From NCBI GenBank assembly GCA_963669175.1, contig OY769902.1:4224001-4288000 (forward strand): 64,000 bases of DNA, written 5' to 3'. Below, one piece after another: positions 7,520-64,000 of this stretch. The notes beneath the pieces are model-generated. The model was not told the origin of the DNA and ran no database searches. It saw only the letters and a program-made list of their open reading frames with translations. The stretch is from a bacterium (GTDB taxonomy: Bacteria > Electryoneota > Electryoneia > Electryoneales > Electryoneaceae). Position 1 is the first letter of the stretch, and each line of letters opens with the position of its first letter. The position numbers and the translations under genes are program-made.

Positions 7520-7571
7520 TAGTAGCAGAAGACTGTGCCGCGTTAAACTATAGTTGTTCCGCTATGTAAAC

Positions 7572-7781
7572 AGTCAAGGGTGTAAAGAGCCTTTGTATCG
7601 TCCCATGTGCCGTTCTGCTATTCGTGCTCGTGGCACAAGTTTTTTGTTCGCACGGAACAGCGGCGCCCTAAACTCGAATCGTTGTCAAGCAACAGAATAA
7701 CTACCAGGGTCGCGTGTTCCCAATGGCATCGGACGATTCAATCACAATCTATGCTTTACCTACCTGCCAGCAGTGCTGGGG
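7572..7781 (-). ncRNA. Putative bridge/seek RNA of IS1111-type copy 1
   Basis: 3' non-coding region identical in both copies. 7671-7678 and 7653-7661 match the two insertion flanks in opposite orientations. RNA ends unknown. Confidence 0.7.
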
Positions 7782-8843
7782 TTATACGCAGGCAGGATTG
7801 TAGTCTTGTTCTTTGACCAGCATGGCCCACAGTATCACGGCTAGTTTTCGTGCCATGGCGACGATCGCCACTTTCCGTGTTTTCCCGGCATGGATCGCAT
7901 CGTATTTCTTCTTTGCATACGGATCTTTTTGCACCCAACGCCACGCAGCTTCGACCAATAGTTTTCGTAGATGGGACGGTCCCCAGTGGGTAATGTGTCC
8001 CATATGGCGTGTGTTGGCGCTTGACCATTCACACGGCGTCAAGCCAAGATGTGCGCCGACTTGCTTACCGGATGCGAAGCGTTCGGGACGATACATCTCG
8101 GTCACGAAGGCGTTCACGGTCAGCTCGCCCACGCCTTTCACCTGGCACAGGCGCTGGGTACGGTCCCGATACGTTGCGGACGCATTCATCGCCTTGATCG
8201 CTTTGGTGATCACCTTGAGTTGCTGTTCAATGGCCTCCAGCTCATCGAGAGCAACATCAATGGCTATCCGTGTCGCAGCCAGACAATCACACGTTCGCAA
8301 CCAGCGCCGGTATTCCTTTGTCCAATAGCGTTGCGGCGGAAACGGTGACTGTAAACCGTGAAACAATAGCAGACTCTTGATTCGGTTTTTGACCCGAACG
8401 CGATCATTCATCACCTGGTCACGGGTGCGAGACAACTGACGATCCGCCTCTTCCTGTTCTGTGGGGACATGTACCCAGGTACGAGGTGGTGTCCAGAACA
8501 TGTGGGCCAAGGTAAGGGCATCCAGATGATCGGTCTTCTGCTGCTTCGCTTGCGCCCCTTTGGGAACTTGGCTGGGCGGCGCGATCTGGCAGTCAACACC
8601 TTGGCCGATCAGGTAACGACAGAGGCCAAAGCCGGTGAGGCCCGCTTCATAACACGCCCACATGCGGCAGTTGGGAAAACGGGCAAAGAAGCGTTCCCAA
8701 GCGGCTGAGTCATGCTTGATCCGATTCTCAAAGAGCACTTCACCAGTCTGGGTGTCGAGCACAACGGCGAAAGAAGTCTGCGAATCAACATCCAGACCTA
8801 TAGACAATGAACGGTCCGCTGCAATAACTTGGTTCTTCGACAT
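7782..8843 (-). CDS. IS110-family DEDD recombinase/transposase
   Basis: IGLDVD, YEAG, KTDHLDA (DEDD); GVGELT; LGLTPCEWSS; LRKLLVEAAW; AMARKL. Confidence 0.96.
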   Translation of the reverse strand: MSKNQVIAADRSLSIGLDVDSQTSFAVVLDTQTGEVLFENRIKHDSAAWERFFARFPNCRMWACYEAGLTGFGLCRYLIGQGVDCQIAPPSQVPKGAQAKQQKTDHLDALTLAHMFWTPPRTWVHVPTEQEEADRQLSRTRDQVMNDRVRVKNRIKSLLLFHGLQSPFPPQRYWTKEYRRWLRTCDCLAATRIAIDVALDELEAIEQQLKVITKAIKAMNASATYRDRTQRLCQVKGVGELTVNAFVTEMYRPERFASGKQVGAHLGLTPCEWSSANTRHMGHITHWGPSHLRKLLVEAAWRWVQKDPYAKKKYDAIHAGKTRKVAIVAMARKLAVILWAMLVKEQDYNPACV

Positions 8844-8937
8844 GGCGCTTCTCCTTGTGTTGGAAAAATGGAATACTGCTAAGATAGCAGTTCCAACACG
8901 ACTTGATGCGCCTGTCGTTTAACATAGGAACTCGAAA

Positions 8938-9099
8938 GCTATTGCTGATTCGATAGCTATTGCTGATTCGATGTCTATTGCTGATTCGATGTCTATTGCT
9001 GATTCGATAGCTATTGCTGATTCGATGTCTATTGCTGATTCGATGTCTATTGCTGATTCGATGTCTATTGCTGATTCGATAGCTATTGCTGATTCGATA
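8938..9099. repeat. Tandem repeat, 9 x 18 bp (K)CTATTGCTGATTCGAT(R)
   Basis: Directly visible; units are gctattgctgattcgata / tctattgctgattcgatg variants. Confidence 0.95.
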
Positions 9100-9105
9100 G
9101 CCATT

Positions 9106-9714
9106 AGCCTGCTTCAGCAGGCTCCTCTTAGCACCCGGCTTTAGCCGGGTGGATGGATATAACAAAAGCTATGAGCGCGCTTTAGCGTGCTTTAACGTCA
9201 TAGAATCCATACGAATCAGGAAAGCACCCTGAAGGGCGCTCGAACGGTTGTTTTCCTTGTTCCCCCGGCTAAAGCCCTGTCTCTTGCTCACATCTTCGTG
9301 TTTCTGCCACCCCGGAGGGGGTGGTATATTTTAGCGTAGGGTTGACGCTGTCTGTTTAGCGTCTACCCTACGAAAAAGATCAAACCTTATCTCAACCCTG
9401 GAAGGGTTGCATAACGTATAATTTACACCCAATTGGTTTGTATAGAATATAAAATGCGTTATTTCCTGTATTTATTGAACGTACTAATATGAATCGCGTA
9501 TTATGCAACCCTTCCAGGGTTGATTATTCGTTAGAATACCTGACATAGTGTACAGGCCAAACAGACGGCCTGTACACTATGCTAAAATAGGGAATCCCGC
9601 CGGGATTCTAAAAATGCTATGTCCACAACTCTTTTACTGATACAGCTTTCAGAAGATGTGGGAAAGAGACAGGGCTAAAGCCGGGGTCTAAGAGGAGCAG
9701 GCTAAAGCCTGCTA
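9106..9714. repeat. REP/REPIN-like element with inverted hairpin arms, interrupted by a MITE
   Basis: Left arm agcctgcttcagcaggct-cctcttag-cacccggctttagccggg mirrors right arm cccggctaaagccgggg-tctaagagg-agcaggctaaagcctgct once 9277-9682 is removed. Confidence 0.75.
9277..9672. mobile_element. MITE with IS50/Tn5-like 19-bp ends (IS4 family, non-autonomous)
   Basis: Ends CTGTCTCTTGCTCACATCT and (reverse complement) CTGTCTCTTTCCCACATCT; flanked by direct repeat GGCTAAAGCC (9267-9276, 9673-9682). Confidence 0.85.
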
Positions 9715-9878
9715 ACACAAGTAAATATATTTTCGAAAGAGTGCAATCGGGGAGAATCGGACTCTACCCAAGAAAGATGTTCAGTGCCTGAAAGCTGCTG
9801 TCGCCAACCTGAAACGGTAAAGACTTTCGGGAACGACATAATCACCAGAAGCATTTGAAACTCAAGGGAGGTGGTTTC

Positions 9879-10202
9879 ATGCTTGGCTTGATCTTGATGC
9901 TCGCTGAAGCAATGTTGTTCTGGTTTATCACCGTATTTATGACCCAGGACCACTCGATTGACTGGAAGAAGTTCGCCCTCTGGACCATCCTGATTCACAT
10001 GCTTGGCAATGGTGTTGCCGTCCTCCTCATTCATGCCCTTGAAGCTCCAGTGCTTGGCGCTATTCTATCCTTGGCGATTGTCGTCTCTGGCCTCTACATC
10101 ATGCTAGGCTCCCATTTTGTCGGGATAAAATCCATAGCCAAGAAAGTTCAAATCCTTGCCATCTACTTTGTCGCTTCCCTGATTTTCAGCATTGTGTGTT
10201 GA
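9879..10202 (+). CDS. Small 4-TM hypothetical membrane protein
   Basis: RBS gggagg before ATG 9879; four hydrophobic segments. Confidence 0.65.
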   Translation: MLGLILMLAEAMLFWFITVFMTQDHSIDWKKFALWTILIHMLGNGVAVLLIHALEAPVLGAILSLAIVVSGLYIMLGSHFVGIKSIAKKVQILAIYFVASLIFSIVC

Positions 10203-10342
10203 GCATGGGCCACTGCTCTTATAACTAGTCTGAGTTCCAGAACCCCACATACATTAATACCCCAGTATCTGCAAATGCTCCGAAGCTCTTAACTATTTCC
10301 TGCCTTTCGCATCGTAAATTCGAATAACATTCTGGAGTTGAA

Positions 10343-11323
10343 ATGAGTACTCATCCTGTCAAAGTCAGGTATTCATTCCTGAAGATTCTGACCGGTTCGG
10401 ATTTATCCCGGCGCAAGCTTCCTGTTATGAGCGCTACCGGCGCCAAACCCGGGCCTGTTGTATGGATAACAGCCTGCGTTCATGGTGATGAAGTCGGAGG
10501 AATTGCCATAGTACAAGAGCTCTTCAAGTACCTGAAGAAGGGATTAAAACGGGGCAAAGTAATGGCTTTCCCCCTGATGAATCCCATTGGTTTTGAAACC
10601 GGATCACGGAACATCACGATCAGCAAGGAAGACCTGAACCGATCCTTTCCCGGTGATCCGGAGGGCAGCCTTGGGAATCGTATTGCCAACCAGGTGTTTG
10701 AAAGGATATTAAGTTCCGACCCTGATCTGGTTCTGGATTTACATAATGACTGGATTCATTCTATTCCCTATGCCCTGATTGATCCTCGAGGTGAAGCGAT
10801 CTCATCAGAAACCATGCGGACAACTCGCGTTTTCGCTCATCAAACCGGCTTCATAGTCGTAAAAGACTCGGAGAACCTGACCGGCTCGCTTTCATACAGT
10901 CTATTGCTCAGAGGGATACCTGCATTGACCTTTGAAATGGGTGAGCCGAAAATCATCAATGAACGAAACGTCAAATACGGACTCGGTGCGATCAAGAATA
11001 TTTTACGCGAGATGGATATGATAGAAGACGTGGACGATCCCTTCCTGTTTCCGTTGCTGAGCTTCGATTTCCGGAACCAGGAATATCTCTATTTTGATCG
11101 TCCCTGTACTTCGAGATCAGGAATAGTCCGTTTCCTGGTAAGCGTCGGGCAACGTGTTAAACAGGGTCAACCAGTTGCAAAGATTGTCAACGCTTTCGGT
11201 AAACAGATCCAGGTGCTACGTGCGAAAACGGATGGCGTTGTCCTTGGGATGACCGATTCGGCAGTTGTTTTCCCGGGGATGGTCGTTATGGCGTTTGCAG
11301 TTTCTGAAATCCCCCAGGATTAG
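10343..11323 (+). CDS. Succinylglutamate desuccinylase/aspartoacylase family (M14-like) protein
   Basis: ACVHGDE, DLNRSFPG, DLH, FEMG; C-terminal biotinyl-like hairpin. Confidence 0.88.
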   Translation: MSTHPVKVRYSFLKILTGSDLSRRKLPVMSATGAKPGPVVWITACVHGDEVGGIAIVQELFKYLKKGLKRGKVMAFPLMNPIGFETGSRNITISKEDLNRSFPGDPEGSLGNRIANQVFERILSSDPDLVLDLHNDWIHSIPYALIDPRGEAISSETMRTTRVFAHQTGFIVVKDSENLTGSLSYSLLLRGIPALTFEMGEPKIINERNVKYGLGAIKNILREMDMIEDVDDPFLFPLLSFDFRNQEYLYFDRPCTSRSGIVRFLVSVGQRVKQGQPVAKIVNAFGKQIQVLRAKTDGVVLGMTDSAVVFPGMVVMAFAVSEIPQD

Positions 11324-63070: not shown

Positions 63071-63248
63071 GGCTTTTTCCTAGTCACCTATGAATCGTTC
63101 GTCGGATACTATCATGACGGTTTATTTTCAAGAGTAGCTATAATTCCTCGGTTTTGTTGAATTACTCAGGTCTTGCAAAAAGTAAAAGGCATGGTTCATT
63201 TTACAACCAAGAAGACGCCAAATCTCTTCAGTTGTAAAGGAGATAACC

Positions 63249-64000
63249 ATGCCTGTCATAACATCGTCATTTTTTGAGTTACTTGCAAGTTTTCGTCCGG
63301 TGTTTCGGAAGCCTGTTTATGAGAATTTTGTACTGTTGGCTATCGGCGCTGTATTGAATTTCGGTCGTCAGACAGTCTGTCAGTTATTACGTGTATTTCC
63401 CGGACCGGTAGCGAAGAGTTGGTCTTGTTATCACCATTTTCTTTCGTCTGCCAACTGGTCCGCCCTGAAACTGGCAAAGATTCTCTGCTCTTTGATACTT
63501 GATCAGATTGCCGAACGTGATCCGATCCTTCTGATCGTGGATGATACCCTGATCCGTCGTTGGGGAAAGCATGTTTACCAGATATCCGTTCACCGCGATC
63601 CCGTCCGTTCGGGCAAAGCAGGGACAAAAGTCGTTTATGCTCGCGGTCTTCAATGGATGGTGATTTCGATTGGTTTGCGCACCCGTTATCGTTCGCAGAT
63701 CTGGGCGCTTCCTGTATTCGTGTTTCCGGAGATCGCCAAAAAGCGTGTTCCGGAATCGAAGTACCGCAGTCCTGTACACCTGATCATTCTCGGGGCGCGT
63801 CTGCTGCTTCGATGGTTCCCGGACCGCCGTTTCCTTATCCTTGCCGACGGTACGTTGAACTCCCACGAACTTCACCGTTTCGTGGCGAAAGAGAACCGTC
63901 TTGCTATCATCGGGCATTCGCGTATGGATACGGTGCTGCATGATCCGCCGCCTCCACCGAACGGGAAACGTGGACGTCCGCGCAAAGTCGGTGACCGTTT
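63249..64000 (+). CDS. IS701-family DDE transposase, runs off the window end
   Basis: Manual translation: MPVITSSF...YHHFLSSANWS...LIVDDTLIRRWG...ILADG...KRGRPRKVG; RBS aaggag. Confidence 0.85.
   Translation, partial: MPVITSSFFELLASFRPVFRKPVYENFVLLAIGAVLNFGRQTVCQLLRVFPGPVAKSWSCYHHFLSSANWSALKLAKILCSLILDQIAERDPILLIVDDTLIRRWGKHVYQISVHRDPVRSGKAGTKVVYARGLQWMVISIGLRTRYRSQIWALPVFVFPEIAKKRVPESKYRSPVHLIILGARLLLRWFPDRRFLILADGTLNSHELHRFVAKENRLAIIGHSRMDTVLHDPPPPPNGKRGRPRKVGDR

What the first reader, a model, noticed from the sequence alone, without database searches (positions are those of the whole stretch)
9267..9682. Natural MITE with Tn5 mosaic-end-like termini, inserted in a REP hairpin and carrying a different REP cargo
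Seen: a 396-bp element with ends CTGTCTCTT-GCT-CACATCT and CTGTCTCTT-TCC-CACATCT, each 16/19 identical to the engineered Tn5 mosaic end CTGTCTCTTATACACATCT. It is flanked by a 10-bp repeat GGCTAAAGCC that is the centre of the host hairpin. Inside are paired hairpins (caaccctggaagggttg / caacccttccagggttg; gtagggttgacgc..gcgtctaccctac; tagtgtacaggcc..ggcctgtacacta) and no ORF. Inference: a non-autonomous IS50-group element, implying a resident Tn5-like transposase that recognises near-ME ends, within a three-level nest of parasites.
Basis: partly seen in the sequence, partly recalled or inferred. Interest (0 to 1): 0.7.

Follow-up and report, generated by a model that had tools for sequence, protein, structure and literature searches.

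The report
Orphan Tn5-type MITE in REP hairpins
This is a real small mobile DNA element with Tn5-like ends, present in about 44 copies that sit mostly at the tips of the host's palindromic repeats, but the genome as assembled has no Tn5-like enzyme to move it.

Summary
Window 9277-9672 is a 396-bp element with the two stated 19-bp ends, a 10-bp duplication GGCTAAAGCC and no ORF of 40 aa or more inside.

It is one of 44 copies in this genome. 36 of the 44 have a perfect 10-bp target duplication, and paralogous empty sites exist. It is therefore a MITE, not an adapter artefact.

The same ends bound autonomous insertion sequences elsewhere whose transposase has the Tn5 domain set. One of these, in a genome of the same family (G009), also makes 10-bp duplications in hairpin loops. 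Insertions are centred on the dyad of GC-rich palindromes, and half lie in GGCTNNAGCC REP loops.

The interior is an inverted doublet of three-hairpin modules. The order matches the flanks of this genome's two RAYT (Y1 transposase) genes, so the "REP cargo" reading stands.

The inferred resident Tn5-like transposase was not found by Pfam, NCBIfam, tblastn or a custom HMM. The resident IS4, IS5, IS701 and IS110 elements have other ends and other duplication lengths.

Verdict: an orphan, recently amplified IS50-group MITE, a new variant of a known kind.

Five earlier notes of this scan on this genome describe REP/BIME repeats. None describes this family.

The parts
9267..9276 (.). Left copy of the 10-bp target-site duplication GGCTAAAGCC. 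It is the loop and inner stem of the host REP hairpin.
   Evidence: Empty paralogues join 9276 to 9673 with a 10-bp overlap.
9277..9672 (+). The 396-bp MITE, subfamily 1. It differs from the subfamily consensus at 2 positions.
9277..9295 (+). Left 19-bp terminal inverted repeat CTGTCTCTTGCTCACATCT.
   Evidence: The same end occurs on other elements in related genomes.
9654..9672 (-). Right 19-bp terminal inverted repeat CTGTCTCTTTCCCACATCT. The family consensus has ACC at positions 10-12. The TCC variant is shared with only one other copy.
9673..9682 (.). Right copy of the 10-bp target-site duplication.
9307..9324 (.). Hairpin H1 (ccaccccggagggggtgg), followed by TATTTTAG. It is terminator-like and faces inward.
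9336..9371 (.). Long hairpin H2 with a 13-bp stem and a GTCTGTTT-type loop. The stem carries a compensatory change between the two subfamilies.
9393..9409 (.). Hairpin H3, CAACCCnnnnnGGGTTG.
   Evidence: The same module lies directly upstream of both RAYT genes.
9506..9522 (.). Hairpin H3', the inverted partner of H3.
9546..9579 (.). Long hairpin H4 with a 13-bp stem and an AAACAGAC loop.
9590..9608 (.). Hairpin H5 (gggaatcccgccgggattc). On the minus strand it is followed by CCTATTTTAG, so it is terminator-like and faces inward.
9086..9276 (.). Left part of the host repeat. The host repeat is a REPIN-like element of about 350 bp made of inverted REP doublets. It has many copies in the genome, with and without the MITE.
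9673..9840 (.). Right part of the host repeat.

Best explanation
The element is a miniature, non-coding derivative (MITE) of an IS50/Tn5-group insertion sequence of the IS4 family.

Inferred mechanism: a Tn5-type DDE transposase supplied in trans binds the two 19-bp ends, excises the element and inserts it with a 10-bp staggered cut. The target is a symmetric site centred on the dyad of a GC-rich palindrome, with optimum CCC-GGCTNNAGCC-GGG, which is the tip of one of the host's REP hairpins. The tips of REP hairpins may thus serve as harmless landing pads.

Composition: the core of the element is not IS-derived. It is an inverted doublet of three-hairpin REP modules of the kind that flank this genome's RAYT (Y1 transposase) genes. 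The element is therefore a chimera of Tn5-type ends around REPIN-type cargo.

History: it amplified recently to about 44 copies in two subfamilies. The transposase that did this is not in the assembled chromosome, so the family is at present an orphan. The enzyme was either lost or lies on DNA outside the assembly.

What is shown: copy number, ends, TSD length, target pattern, empty sites, the existence of autonomous relatives, and the absence of the enzyme from the assembly. What is inferred: the transposition chemistry, trans-mobilisation and the origin of the cargo.
For: Copies and duplications:
- The genome holds 93 ends with at most 2 mismatches, forming 43 inverted pairs. Pair sizes are 27 of 396 bp, 12 of 395 bp, one each of 397 and 398 bp, and two copies interrupted by other elements.
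- BLAST finds 42 full-length copies.
- 34 of those 42 have a perfect 10-bp TSD. Counting the two interrupted copies, the figure is 36 of 44.
- The first and last TSD bases vary among copies, so 10 bp is not an artefact of boundary choice.
- Empty paralogues of the host repeat join the two flanks with a 10-bp overlap, for example G000 2630329-2630674.

Autonomous relatives with the same ends:
- L086 is 1557 bp with a 482-aa transposase. Pfam gives Tnp_DNA_bind 2.3e-16, Dimer_Tnp_Tn5 4.4e-9 and DDE_Tnp_1 4.4e-6. It matches the PDB Tn5 transposase at 2.8e-41.
- The IS in G009, a genome of the same family, is 1476 bp and present in 2 copies. Its 463-aa transposase scores 425.6 bits on NF033590. 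Both copies have the 10-bp TSD ggttccatcc in a cccgg...ccggg hairpin loop.
- A Tn5-like IS in G003 abuts cacccGGCTTCAGCC.
- Of the 9 short elements with such ends that I tabulated (Ktedonobacter, haloarchaeal MAGs, Calditrichaeota-labelled MAGs), 7 have a perfect 10-bp TSD flanked by stems. Two MITE-like pairs in G-handle genomes (L045, L046) show none.

Ends: they meet all conserved positions of the IS50-subgroup consensus CW------Y---CA-A--W- (PMC2266710 Table 1).

Target:
- 18 of 36 TSDs are GGCTNNAGCC.
- All 18 have 3 or more flanking stem pairs, against 118 of 223 intact GGCTNNAGCC sites (binomial 3.4e-5).
- Dyad pairing peaks at the TSD centre: 5.81 of 10 pairs, against 2.49 +/- 1.4 at random sites and about 1.7-3.1 at shifted centres. 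The 18 non-GGCT sites give 4.72.

Recency: 13 of 29 subfamily-1 copies equal the consensus, and mean pairwise identity is 99.4%.

Cargo:
- Blastn matches of 113 and 94 aligned bases from the right half of the element match the region upstream of a Y1_Tnp gene (E 1.6e-25) at 80.5% and 77.7% identity.
- The second RAYT gene is flanked on both sides by the same module order.
Against: - No Tn5-type transposase was found in G000. PF02281 and PF14706 gave 0 matches at E up to 1. NF033590 scored at best 23.9 bits against a cut-off of 160, and those hits fall on the IS4_1-type elements. tblastn with two Tn5-like transposases gave best E values of 1.7 and 0.56. A two-sequence HMM on six-frame ORFs gave a best E of 0.98. 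Mobilisation is therefore inferred, not shown, in this organism.
- The TSD is 10 bp, whereas the IS50 subgroup is tabulated at 8-9 bp. L086 and the ISVa18-type IS, which have similar ends, make 9-bp TSDs.
- 8 of the 44 copies lack a perfect TSD.
- The hairpin bias could partly reflect selection against insertions in genes rather than targeting. Non-hairpin GGCTNNAGCC sites may lie in coding DNA, and I did not test this.
- No autonomous element sharing sequence with the MITE beyond about 20 bp of its ends was found in any collection.
Confidence: 0.82

Rival explanations
1. The reading is the same, but the element is not an orphan. A cognate Tn5-like IS is present in the cell on a replicon or repeat missing from the single-contig assembly, or it is too divergent to be recognised, and it still mobilises the MITE.
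For: 13 of 29 subfamily-1 copies are identical to the consensus, which suggests very recent activity. The assembly is one contig with 95.9% marker completeness, so plasmids may be missing. Relatives in the same family carry such IS.
Against: Five independent searches of the assembly found nothing. The only unpaired ends in the chromosome are solo or truncated relics with no adjacent transposase ORF. The MITE has no match in the plasmid collection, and the viral collection holds no match to the end pattern.
Confidence: 0.12
2. The MITE is cross-mobilised by a resident transposase of another kind: the IS4_1-type IS (5 copies), the IS5-type (2 copies), the IS701-type (7 copies) or the IS110-type (12 copies).
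For: These are the only transposases found. One IS4_1-type copy even lies inside a MITE copy. The IS110-type element sits next to the host repeat at several loci.
Against: Their ends are unlike the MITE's: CACTGCTGTCCGG or CAGAACTGTCCGG for the IS4_1 type, GTCGTCTCTGAAG for the IS5 type, and CTCGGTTTTG for the IS701 type. By my reading of the flanks printed, their duplications are 9, 6 and about 7 bp, not 10. IS110-family elements have no terminal inverted repeats; this point rests on established knowledge and was not tested here.
Confidence: 0.03
3. The element is a REPIN/BIME-type repeat spread by the RAYT (Y1, HUH) transposases, and its Tn5-like ends are incidental.
For: The interior has the module order of the RAYT gene flanks. 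The genome is full of REP-type repeats.
Against: Precise 19-bp terminal inverted repeats plus 10-bp duplications in 36 of 44 copies are the signature of a DDE cut-and-paste enzyme. That HUH enzymes make no such duplications is established knowledge and was not tested here. Elements with the same ends but unrelated interiors exist in the same genus and elsewhere. The internal hairpin modules are almost confined to the MITE copies: 0 to 6 occurrences of each lie outside them.
Confidence: 0.02
4. The ends are Nextera/Tn5 adapter chimeras or another assembly artefact.
For: The ends are 16 of 19 identical to the mosaic end.
Against: Positions 10-12 are GCT, ACC, ACT or TCC and never ATA, in all 71 exact-pattern ends in G000. 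The ends come as inverted pairs with TSDs inside a closed contig. True adapter remnants in two other assemblies have the exact ATA form: 5 matches in G032 (3 at contig starts, 2 far along their contigs, whose lengths I did not check) and 2 in G026 (both at contig starts). In the isolate's own runs the MITE core forms a unitig of depth 919 against 33 for the flanking unique contig. That is consistent with many copies, although the tool warns that such depths are not copy numbers.
Confidence: 0.01

Closest known systems
IS50 / Tn5 and the IS50 subgroup of the IS4 family (NCBIfam NF033590; Pfam PF14706 + PF01609 + PF02281)
   Same: The 19-bp ends fit every conserved position of the subgroup consensus. 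Both ends are 16 of 19 identical to the mosaic end. Autonomous IS with the same ends encode transposases with the Tn5 domain set and match the solved Tn5 transposase at 2.8e-41. The target is palindromic with G and C at the ends of the duplication, like the Tn5 motif AGNTYWRANCT and the Tn10 motif GNNGCTNAGCNNC (PMC2577343 Table 1).
   Different: The element carries no transposase gene, and none is in the genome. The duplication is 10 bp, not 8-9. Insertions concentrate at the dyads of REP hairpins. The interior is REP-type DNA, not IS-derived.
ISVa18-family IS4 elements on Vibrio plasmids (named in plasmid annotation)
   Same: They are the closest named relatives of the G009-type transposase: 40-41% identity over 98-99% of its length. 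Their ends begin with the same CTGTCTCTT. Both copies examined sit in palindromes.
   Different: They are autonomous, 1503-1505 bp long, make 9-bp duplications, and the distal half of the end sequence differs.
REP-targeting insertion sequences: IS1397/ISKpn1 (IS3 family), IS621, ISPpu9, ISPpu10 and ISPa11 (IS110 family), ISRm22 (IS4 family). Source: PMC1525189 passages; PMC12288879 abstract.
   Same: They insert specifically into REP palindromes. An IS4-family case (ISRm22) is already on record.
   Different: Those are autonomous IS, and none is of the IS50 subgroup in the passages I read. Here the REP-targeted element is a MITE with Tn5-type ends.
REPINs / BIMEs and RAYT (REP-associated Y1 transposases): PMC3116915 and PMC3333891, abstracts only
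   Same: The core of the element is an inverted doublet of REP-type hairpin clusters with the same module order as the flanks of this genome's two Y1_Tnp genes.
   Different: The whole element has DDE-type terminal inverted repeats and 10-bp duplications, which REPINs lack.
Prokaryotic MITEs in general (review PMC10969869, passages)
   Same: Small, non-coding, with terminal inverted repeats and target duplications, many copies, size variants, mostly intergenic.
   Different: In the passages shown, that review mentions Tn5 and IS50 only as a textbook composite transposon. No IS50-derived MITE appears there or in the listings.

Membership tests
MITE (non-autonomous DDE transposon derivative) | Short and without coding capacity | tested here: met
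   The element is 396 bp and has no ORF of 40 aa or more inside it.
MITE (non-autonomous DDE transposon derivative) | Terminal inverted repeats | tested here: met
   The 19-bp ends agree at 16 of 19 positions with each other in the window copy, and at 17 of 19 in the subfamily-1 consensus.
MITE (non-autonomous DDE transposon derivative) | Target-site duplication of fixed length, and empty sites | tested here: met
   36 of 44 copies have a perfect 10-bp TSD. Empty paralogous host repeats exist.
MITE (non-autonomous DDE transposon derivative) | Multiple dispersed copies | tested here: met
   There are 44 copies plus relics across the 5.45-Mb contig.
IS50 subgroup of the IS4 family (Tn5-like) | Ends fit the subgroup consensus CW------Y---CA-A--W- | tested here: met
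   C1, T2, T9, C13, A14, A16 and T19 are all present in both ends of the window copy. The consensus comes from PMC2266710 Table 1. In subfamily 2, one end has C at position 19.
IS50 subgroup of the IS4 family (Tn5-like) | Elements with these ends encode a Tn5-type transposase (Tnp_DNA_bind + DDE + Tn5 dimerisation domain; NF033590) | tested here: met
   Met for L086 and for the G009 IS. In G009 the dimerisation domain scores 24.3 bits, just under Pfam's cut-off of 26.7.
IS50 subgroup of the IS4 family (Tn5-like) | Direct repeats of 8-9 bp | tested here: not met
   The repeats here are 10 bp. The autonomous G009 IS, which has a Tn5-type transposase, also gives 10 bp. This therefore looks like a property of a sub-lineage rather than grounds for exclusion.
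IS50 subgroup of the IS4 family (Tn5-like) | A cognate transposase in the same genome able to act in trans | tested here: not met
   None was found by five searches.
IS50 subgroup of the IS4 family (Tn5-like) | The transposase binds and cleaves these ends | not testable with these tools
   This needs a biochemical or genetic assay.
REPIN / BIME (RAYT-mobilised REP doublet) | The sequence matches the REPs flanking a RAYT gene | tested here: inconclusive
   Only blastn matches of 113 and 94 aligned bases from the core match the RAYT upstream region, at 80.5% and 77.7% identity. The module order is the same at both RAYT genes.
REPIN / BIME (RAYT-mobilised REP doublet) | No terminal inverted repeats of DDE type and no target duplication | tested here: not met
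   Both are present.
Nextera adapter contamination | The exact mosaic end, lying at read or contig ends | tested here: not met
   The middle triplet is never ATA in G000, and all copies are internal to one contig. The contrast cases are G032 and G026.

The most novel reading that the evidence does not exclude
The MITE marks an undescribed sub-lineage of Tn5/IS50-type transposons, found in Calditrichaeota-labelled genomes, Ktedonobacter and haloarchaeal MAGs. The enzyme of this sub-lineage would cut targets with a 10-bp rather than a 9-bp stagger. It would be specialised to land on the dyad of REP-type hairpins, possibly reading extruded or bendable palindromic DNA rather than sequence alone. 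Its natural ends are nearly the engineered hyperactive mosaic end. Its MITEs can pick up REPIN cargo from a second, unrelated (HUH) transposition system, so that two mobile-DNA systems are coupled in one element.
Probability: 0.35. Interest if true: 0.55.

Novelty: new variant of a known kind. Interest (0 to 1): 0.42.

Why it matters
Tn5 is the workhorse of tagmentation and transposon mutagenesis, yet its natural relatives and their non-autonomous derivatives are little described.

This family shows three things:
- Near-mosaic ends occur in nature.
- A branch of Tn5-like elements makes 10-bp duplications.
- That branch homes to the tips of REP palindromes, a neutral landing pad.

This gives a concrete enzyme-and-end pair (the G009-type transposase with these ends) in which to study what sets stagger length and target choice in Tn5-type transposases.

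It is also a clear case of layered genomic parasites. A REPIN-like host repeat holds a Tn5-type MITE with REPIN-type cargo. At other loci that MITE holds an IS4-family IS or a further repeat. An IS110-family IS lies beside the host repeat.

For genome annotation, the family explains 44 intergenic insertions and several flank mismatches that look like recombination between copies.

Tried and rejected
- Rfam, permissive mode, on 8500-10500: the only match was MIR3627 at E 0.69, 19 bits against a gathering score of 64. I treat it as chance.
- Search for the parent IS:
  - The 40 relatives scored for the whole MITE gave only a 53-bp hairpin-module hit in the same genus.
  - The metagenome scan with a 21-base end pattern gave 1 locus, with no partner end and no transposase-like ORF in my script's ORF list, which I did not scan against a family library.
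  - The viral scan gave 0.
  - blastn against plasmids gave no match.
- The locus L042/L052, an end next to a 375-aa ORF, is a solo end beside an ORF that I recognised only by eye as NeuB-like. No family search was run on it.
- Sequencing runs: no RNA holder was listed. All four runs laid were Logan contigs, so starts, ends and rare alleles cannot be seen.
  - One contig in X1 joins 9276 to 9683 (side 23, one letter between). It most likely comes from a paralogous empty host repeat, and I do not count it as excision.
  - A marine metagenome run (X3) holds pieces of the MITE core at 90-99% likeness. This shows only that relatives exist there.
- PMC532410 (comparative analysis of IS50/Tn5 transposases) is not held, so I could not check which natural end sequences were already tabulated. 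The supplementary PDFs of PMC2266710, which align the IS50-subgroup ends, were not read.
- I considered whether the composite of host repeat plus MITE spreads as a unit. In one search, the 10 matches that span the host-repeat flanks and the MITE together are 84-95% identical overall, while the MITEs alone are about 99% identical (subfamily 1). I did not compute flank-only identity. On this basis I take most as independent hits on the same hairpin. The window copy and G000 4482758-4483153 share the rare TCC end and their flanks, and may be one duplicated or converted unit.
Full report
**Observation**

The sequence is as described. A 396-bp element lies at window 9277-9672. Its left end is CTGTCTCTTGCTCACATCT. 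Its right end, read inward, is CTGTCTCTTTCCCACATCT. It is flanked by GGCTAAAGCC on both sides inside ccccGGCTAAAGCCgggg.

The pattern CTGTCTCTTNNNCACATCT occurs exactly twice in the window, as an inverted pair. 0.06 matches are expected, and none of 100 shuffles gave two. No ORF of 40 aa or more lies inside.

**A family, not a singleton or an artefact**

The window is G000:C1:4224001-4288000, in a single 5,447,365-base contig.

- The genome holds 93 ends with at most 2 mismatches, forming 43 inverted pairs.
- The pair sizes are 27 of 396 bp, 12 of 395 bp, one each of 397 and 398 bp, one of 870 bp and one of 1717 bp.
- The 870-bp and 1717-bp pairs are MITE copies with other elements inside. One holds a 470-bp repeat with 4-bp flanking repeats. 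The other holds a 1312-bp IS4-family IS with a 9-bp duplication.
- BLAST finds 42 uninterrupted full-length copies, plus truncated and diverged relics.
- 34 of the 42 have a perfect 10-bp duplication. With the two interrupted copies the figure is 36 of 44.
- The outer bases of the duplication vary among copies, so the length is truly 10.
- Of the 8 copies without a perfect duplication, several have two different REP-loop variants on their two sides. This pattern is expected from recombination between copies. That is inference.
- Paralogous copies of the surrounding repeat lack the MITE and join window 9276 to 9673 with a 10-bp overlap, for example G000 2630329-2630674.

On the adapter question:

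- The middle triplet of the ends is GCT, ACC, ACT or TCC, and never the adapter's ATA.
- In two other assemblies of the phylum the exact ATA form occurs: 3 of 5 matches in G032 and both in G026 lie at contig starts. I read those as true adapter remnants.
- In the isolate's own runs the MITE core is a unitig of depth 919 beside a unique contig of depth 33. This is consistent with many copies, although the tool warns that these depths are not copy numbers.

The adapter-chimera explanation is excluded.

**Two subfamilies and recent spread**

- 29 copies form subfamily 1. 13 of them are identical to the consensus, and mean pairwise identity is 99.4%. The window copy differs from the consensus at 2 positions.
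- 13 copies form subfamily 2, with mean pairwise identity 97.9%.
- The two subfamilies are 89.6% alike.
- They differ mostly in the AT-rich centre.
- One stem of the long hairpin H2 carries a compensatory change, A-T to G-C.

**What kind of element**

The ends meet every conserved position of the end consensus that De Palmenaer et al. tabulate for the IS50 subgroup of the IS4 family (PMC2266710, Table 1, passages read).

A scan of one genome per species for CTGTCTCTTRCYCACATCT gave 43 loci. Two of them overlap on one contig.

- One locus, on a Chloroflexia MAG contig (L086), is a 1557-bp IS with a 482-aa transposase. The transposase has Tnp_DNA_bind, DDE_Tnp_1 and Dimer_Tnp_Tn5. It matches the solved Tn5 transposase at E 2.8e-41 and NF033590 at 316 bits. 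It made a 9-bp duplication.
- That overlapping pair (L094/L095, another Chloroflexia MAG contig) holds a 1539-bp element with two perfect ends, but its reading frame is split into ORFs of 254 and 388 aa. I did not study it further.

I then searched the 79 genomes of the window's phylum with the L086 protein. 4 of the 79 had a match.

- G009 is in the same family as G000. It carries two copies of a 1476-bp IS with ends CTGTCTTTTAGTCACATCT and CTGTCTCTTAGTCACATTT. Its 463-aa transposase scores 425.6 bits on NF033590. Both copies have the 10-bp duplication ggttccatcc in the loop of a cccgg...ccggg hairpin.
- G003, also of the family, has a Tn5-like IS abutting cacccGGCTTCAGCC.

Among the short elements with such ends, I tabulated nine, from Ktedonobacter (137 bp), haloarchaeal MAGs (259-293 bp) and Calditrichaeota-labelled MAGs (232-366 bp). 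Seven of the nine have a perfect 10-bp duplication flanked by stems. Two MITE-like pairs in G-handle genomes (L045, L046) showed no clear duplication.

In the same-genus genome, an element shares only the first 20 bases with this MITE. The ends are thus the conserved, functional part, and the interiors are free to vary.

**Target**

- 18 of the 36 clean duplications are GGCTNNAGCC.
- All 18 have at least 3 flanking stem pairs. Only 118 of the 223 unoccupied GGCTNNAGCC sites do (binomial 3.4e-5).
- Pairing of positions mirrored about the centre of the duplication averages 5.81 of 10. At shifted centres it is 1.7-3.1, and at random genome sites it is 2.49 +/- 1.4. The 18 non-GGCT sites average 4.72.
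- About five sites are not palindromic.

This is a symmetric target motif longer than the duplication. It is the kind known for Tn5 (AGNTYWRANCT, 9 bp) and Tn10 (GNNGCTNAGCNNC, 9 bp), both from PMC2577343 Table 1. Here it has one more central base.

One caveat applies. Selection against insertions in genes could add to the bias, and I did not map the coding status of the unoccupied sites.

REP targeting by IS of five families, including one IS4-family element (ISRm22), is in print (PMC1525189, passages).

**The host site**

Window 9086-9276 plus 9673-9840 is itself a repeat of about 350 bp built from inverted REP doublets. It has many copies.

Ten further loci match the window across both flanks and the MITE, which puts a MITE at the same hairpin of this repeat. 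Those spanning matches are 84-95% identical overall, whereas the MITEs alone are about 99% identical. I did not compute flank-only identity. On this basis I take most of these as independent hits.

**The cargo**

The two halves of the element are diverged inverted copies of each other (73% over 89 bases). Each half has three modules:

- a small hairpin followed by a T-rich tail, facing inward;
- a long hairpin with a GTCTGTTT/AAACAGAC loop;
- a CAACCCnnnnnGGGTTG hairpin.

The exact hairpins are nearly confined to the MITE copies, with 0 to 6 occurrences of each outside. The same module order lies upstream of a 151-aa Y1_Tnp gene (E 1.6e-25) at G000 2672106-2672558, matching at 80.5% and 77.7% identity over 113 and 94 aligned bases. 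It also lies on both sides of a second RAYT-like gene at G000 5013755-5014207.

The core is therefore REPIN-type DNA enclosed by Tn5-type ends. How it was captured is not shown. Template switching during gap repair after excision is one ordinary route, and that is inference.

**No resident enzyme**

- PF02281 and PF14706 have no match in the genome at E up to 1.
- NF033590 reaches 23.9 bits against a cut-off of 160, and only on other IS.
- tblastn with the L086 and G009 transposases gives best E values of 1.7 and 0.56.
- A two-sequence HMM over all six-frame ORFs of 40 aa or more gives a best E of 0.98.

The transposases that are present belong to other groups:

- IS4_1 type: 5 copies, 9-bp duplications.
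- IS5 type: 2 copies, 6-bp duplications.
- IS701 type: 7 copies, about 7-bp duplications.
- IS110 type: 12 copies.

Their ends are unlike the MITE's. The family is thus an orphan in the assembly. A missing plasmid cannot be excluded.

**Literature on novelty**

- The prokaryotic MITE review PMC10969869, in the passages shown, mentions Tn5 and IS50 only as a textbook transposon.
- The listings show no paper on an IS50-derived MITE.
- I could not read PMC532410, the supplementary end alignments of PMC2266710, or ISfinder. Prior description of 10-bp IS50-type elements therefore cannot be ruled out.

**Verdict**

The element is a real, recently amplified, orphan MITE of the Tn5/IS50 group. It has a 10-bp duplication, homes to REP-hairpin dyads and carries a REPIN-type core. 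It is a new variant of a known kind, of moderate interest.

Noticed in passing
window 7549-8935 (transposase ORF 7782-8843, minus strand): An IS110-family IS (PF01548 + PF02371), 1387 bp, with 12 copies in the genome at 99.0-99.9% identity. At several loci it lies directly beside the same REPIN-like host repeat that holds the MITE, with or without the MITE. This suggests that it too targets that repeat.
   Followed up: partly
window about 8930-9100: A tandem array of an 18-base unit (tgattcgat[ag]gc[tc]attgc) lies between the IS110-family element and the host repeat. A longer array of other short units lies between REP modules upstream of the RAYT gene at G000 2671400-2671960.
   Followed up: no
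G000 847595-848464 and about 50 other loci (for example G000 3605870-3606348): A repeat of about 470-478 bp, with ends CCCGAATATTTC... and flanking CTAA, lies inside one MITE copy. It occurs about 50 times at 92-95% identity. Its hairpins match the flanks of the second RAYT gene.
   Followed up: partly
G000 5013755-5014207 and 2672106-2672558: Two RAYT-like Y1 transposase genes, 46% identical. The first-named is flanked on both sides by inverted three-hairpin REP clusters, the layout I recall being called a REPtron. Three weaker tblastn matches lie elsewhere.
   Followed up: partly
window 63147-64000 (runs off the window end): One of 7 copies of a 1465-bp IS701-family IS (NF049999, 289.5 bits) with ends CTCGGTTTTG.
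   Followed up: partly
G032 (5 matches: 3 at contig starts, 2 far along their contigs) and G026 (2 matches, both at contig starts): The exact mosaic-end sequence occurs in two MAGs of the phylum, at the very start of contigs in 5 of the 7 matches. I read these as unremoved Nextera adapter in public assemblies.
   Followed up: no
L059, L068, L070, L077, L085, L091, L093 (Legionella records): Seven Legionella loci carry a solitary CTGTCTCTTGC[TC]CACATCT. Five of the seven have no partner end (up to 4 mismatches) within 2.5 kb. L068 and L085 have only poor candidates at 104 and 89 bases, with 3 and 4 mismatches. No Tn5-sized ORF adjoins any of them in my script's ORF list, and no family search was run. 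Their meaning is unexplained.
   Followed up: no
G000 4509706-4510101 and 4510267-4510661: Two MITE copies, one of each subfamily, sit 166 bases apart in neighbouring hairpins of one host repeat. Several copies have non-matching REP-loop variants on their two sides, as expected if copies have recombined with each other.
   Followed up: no
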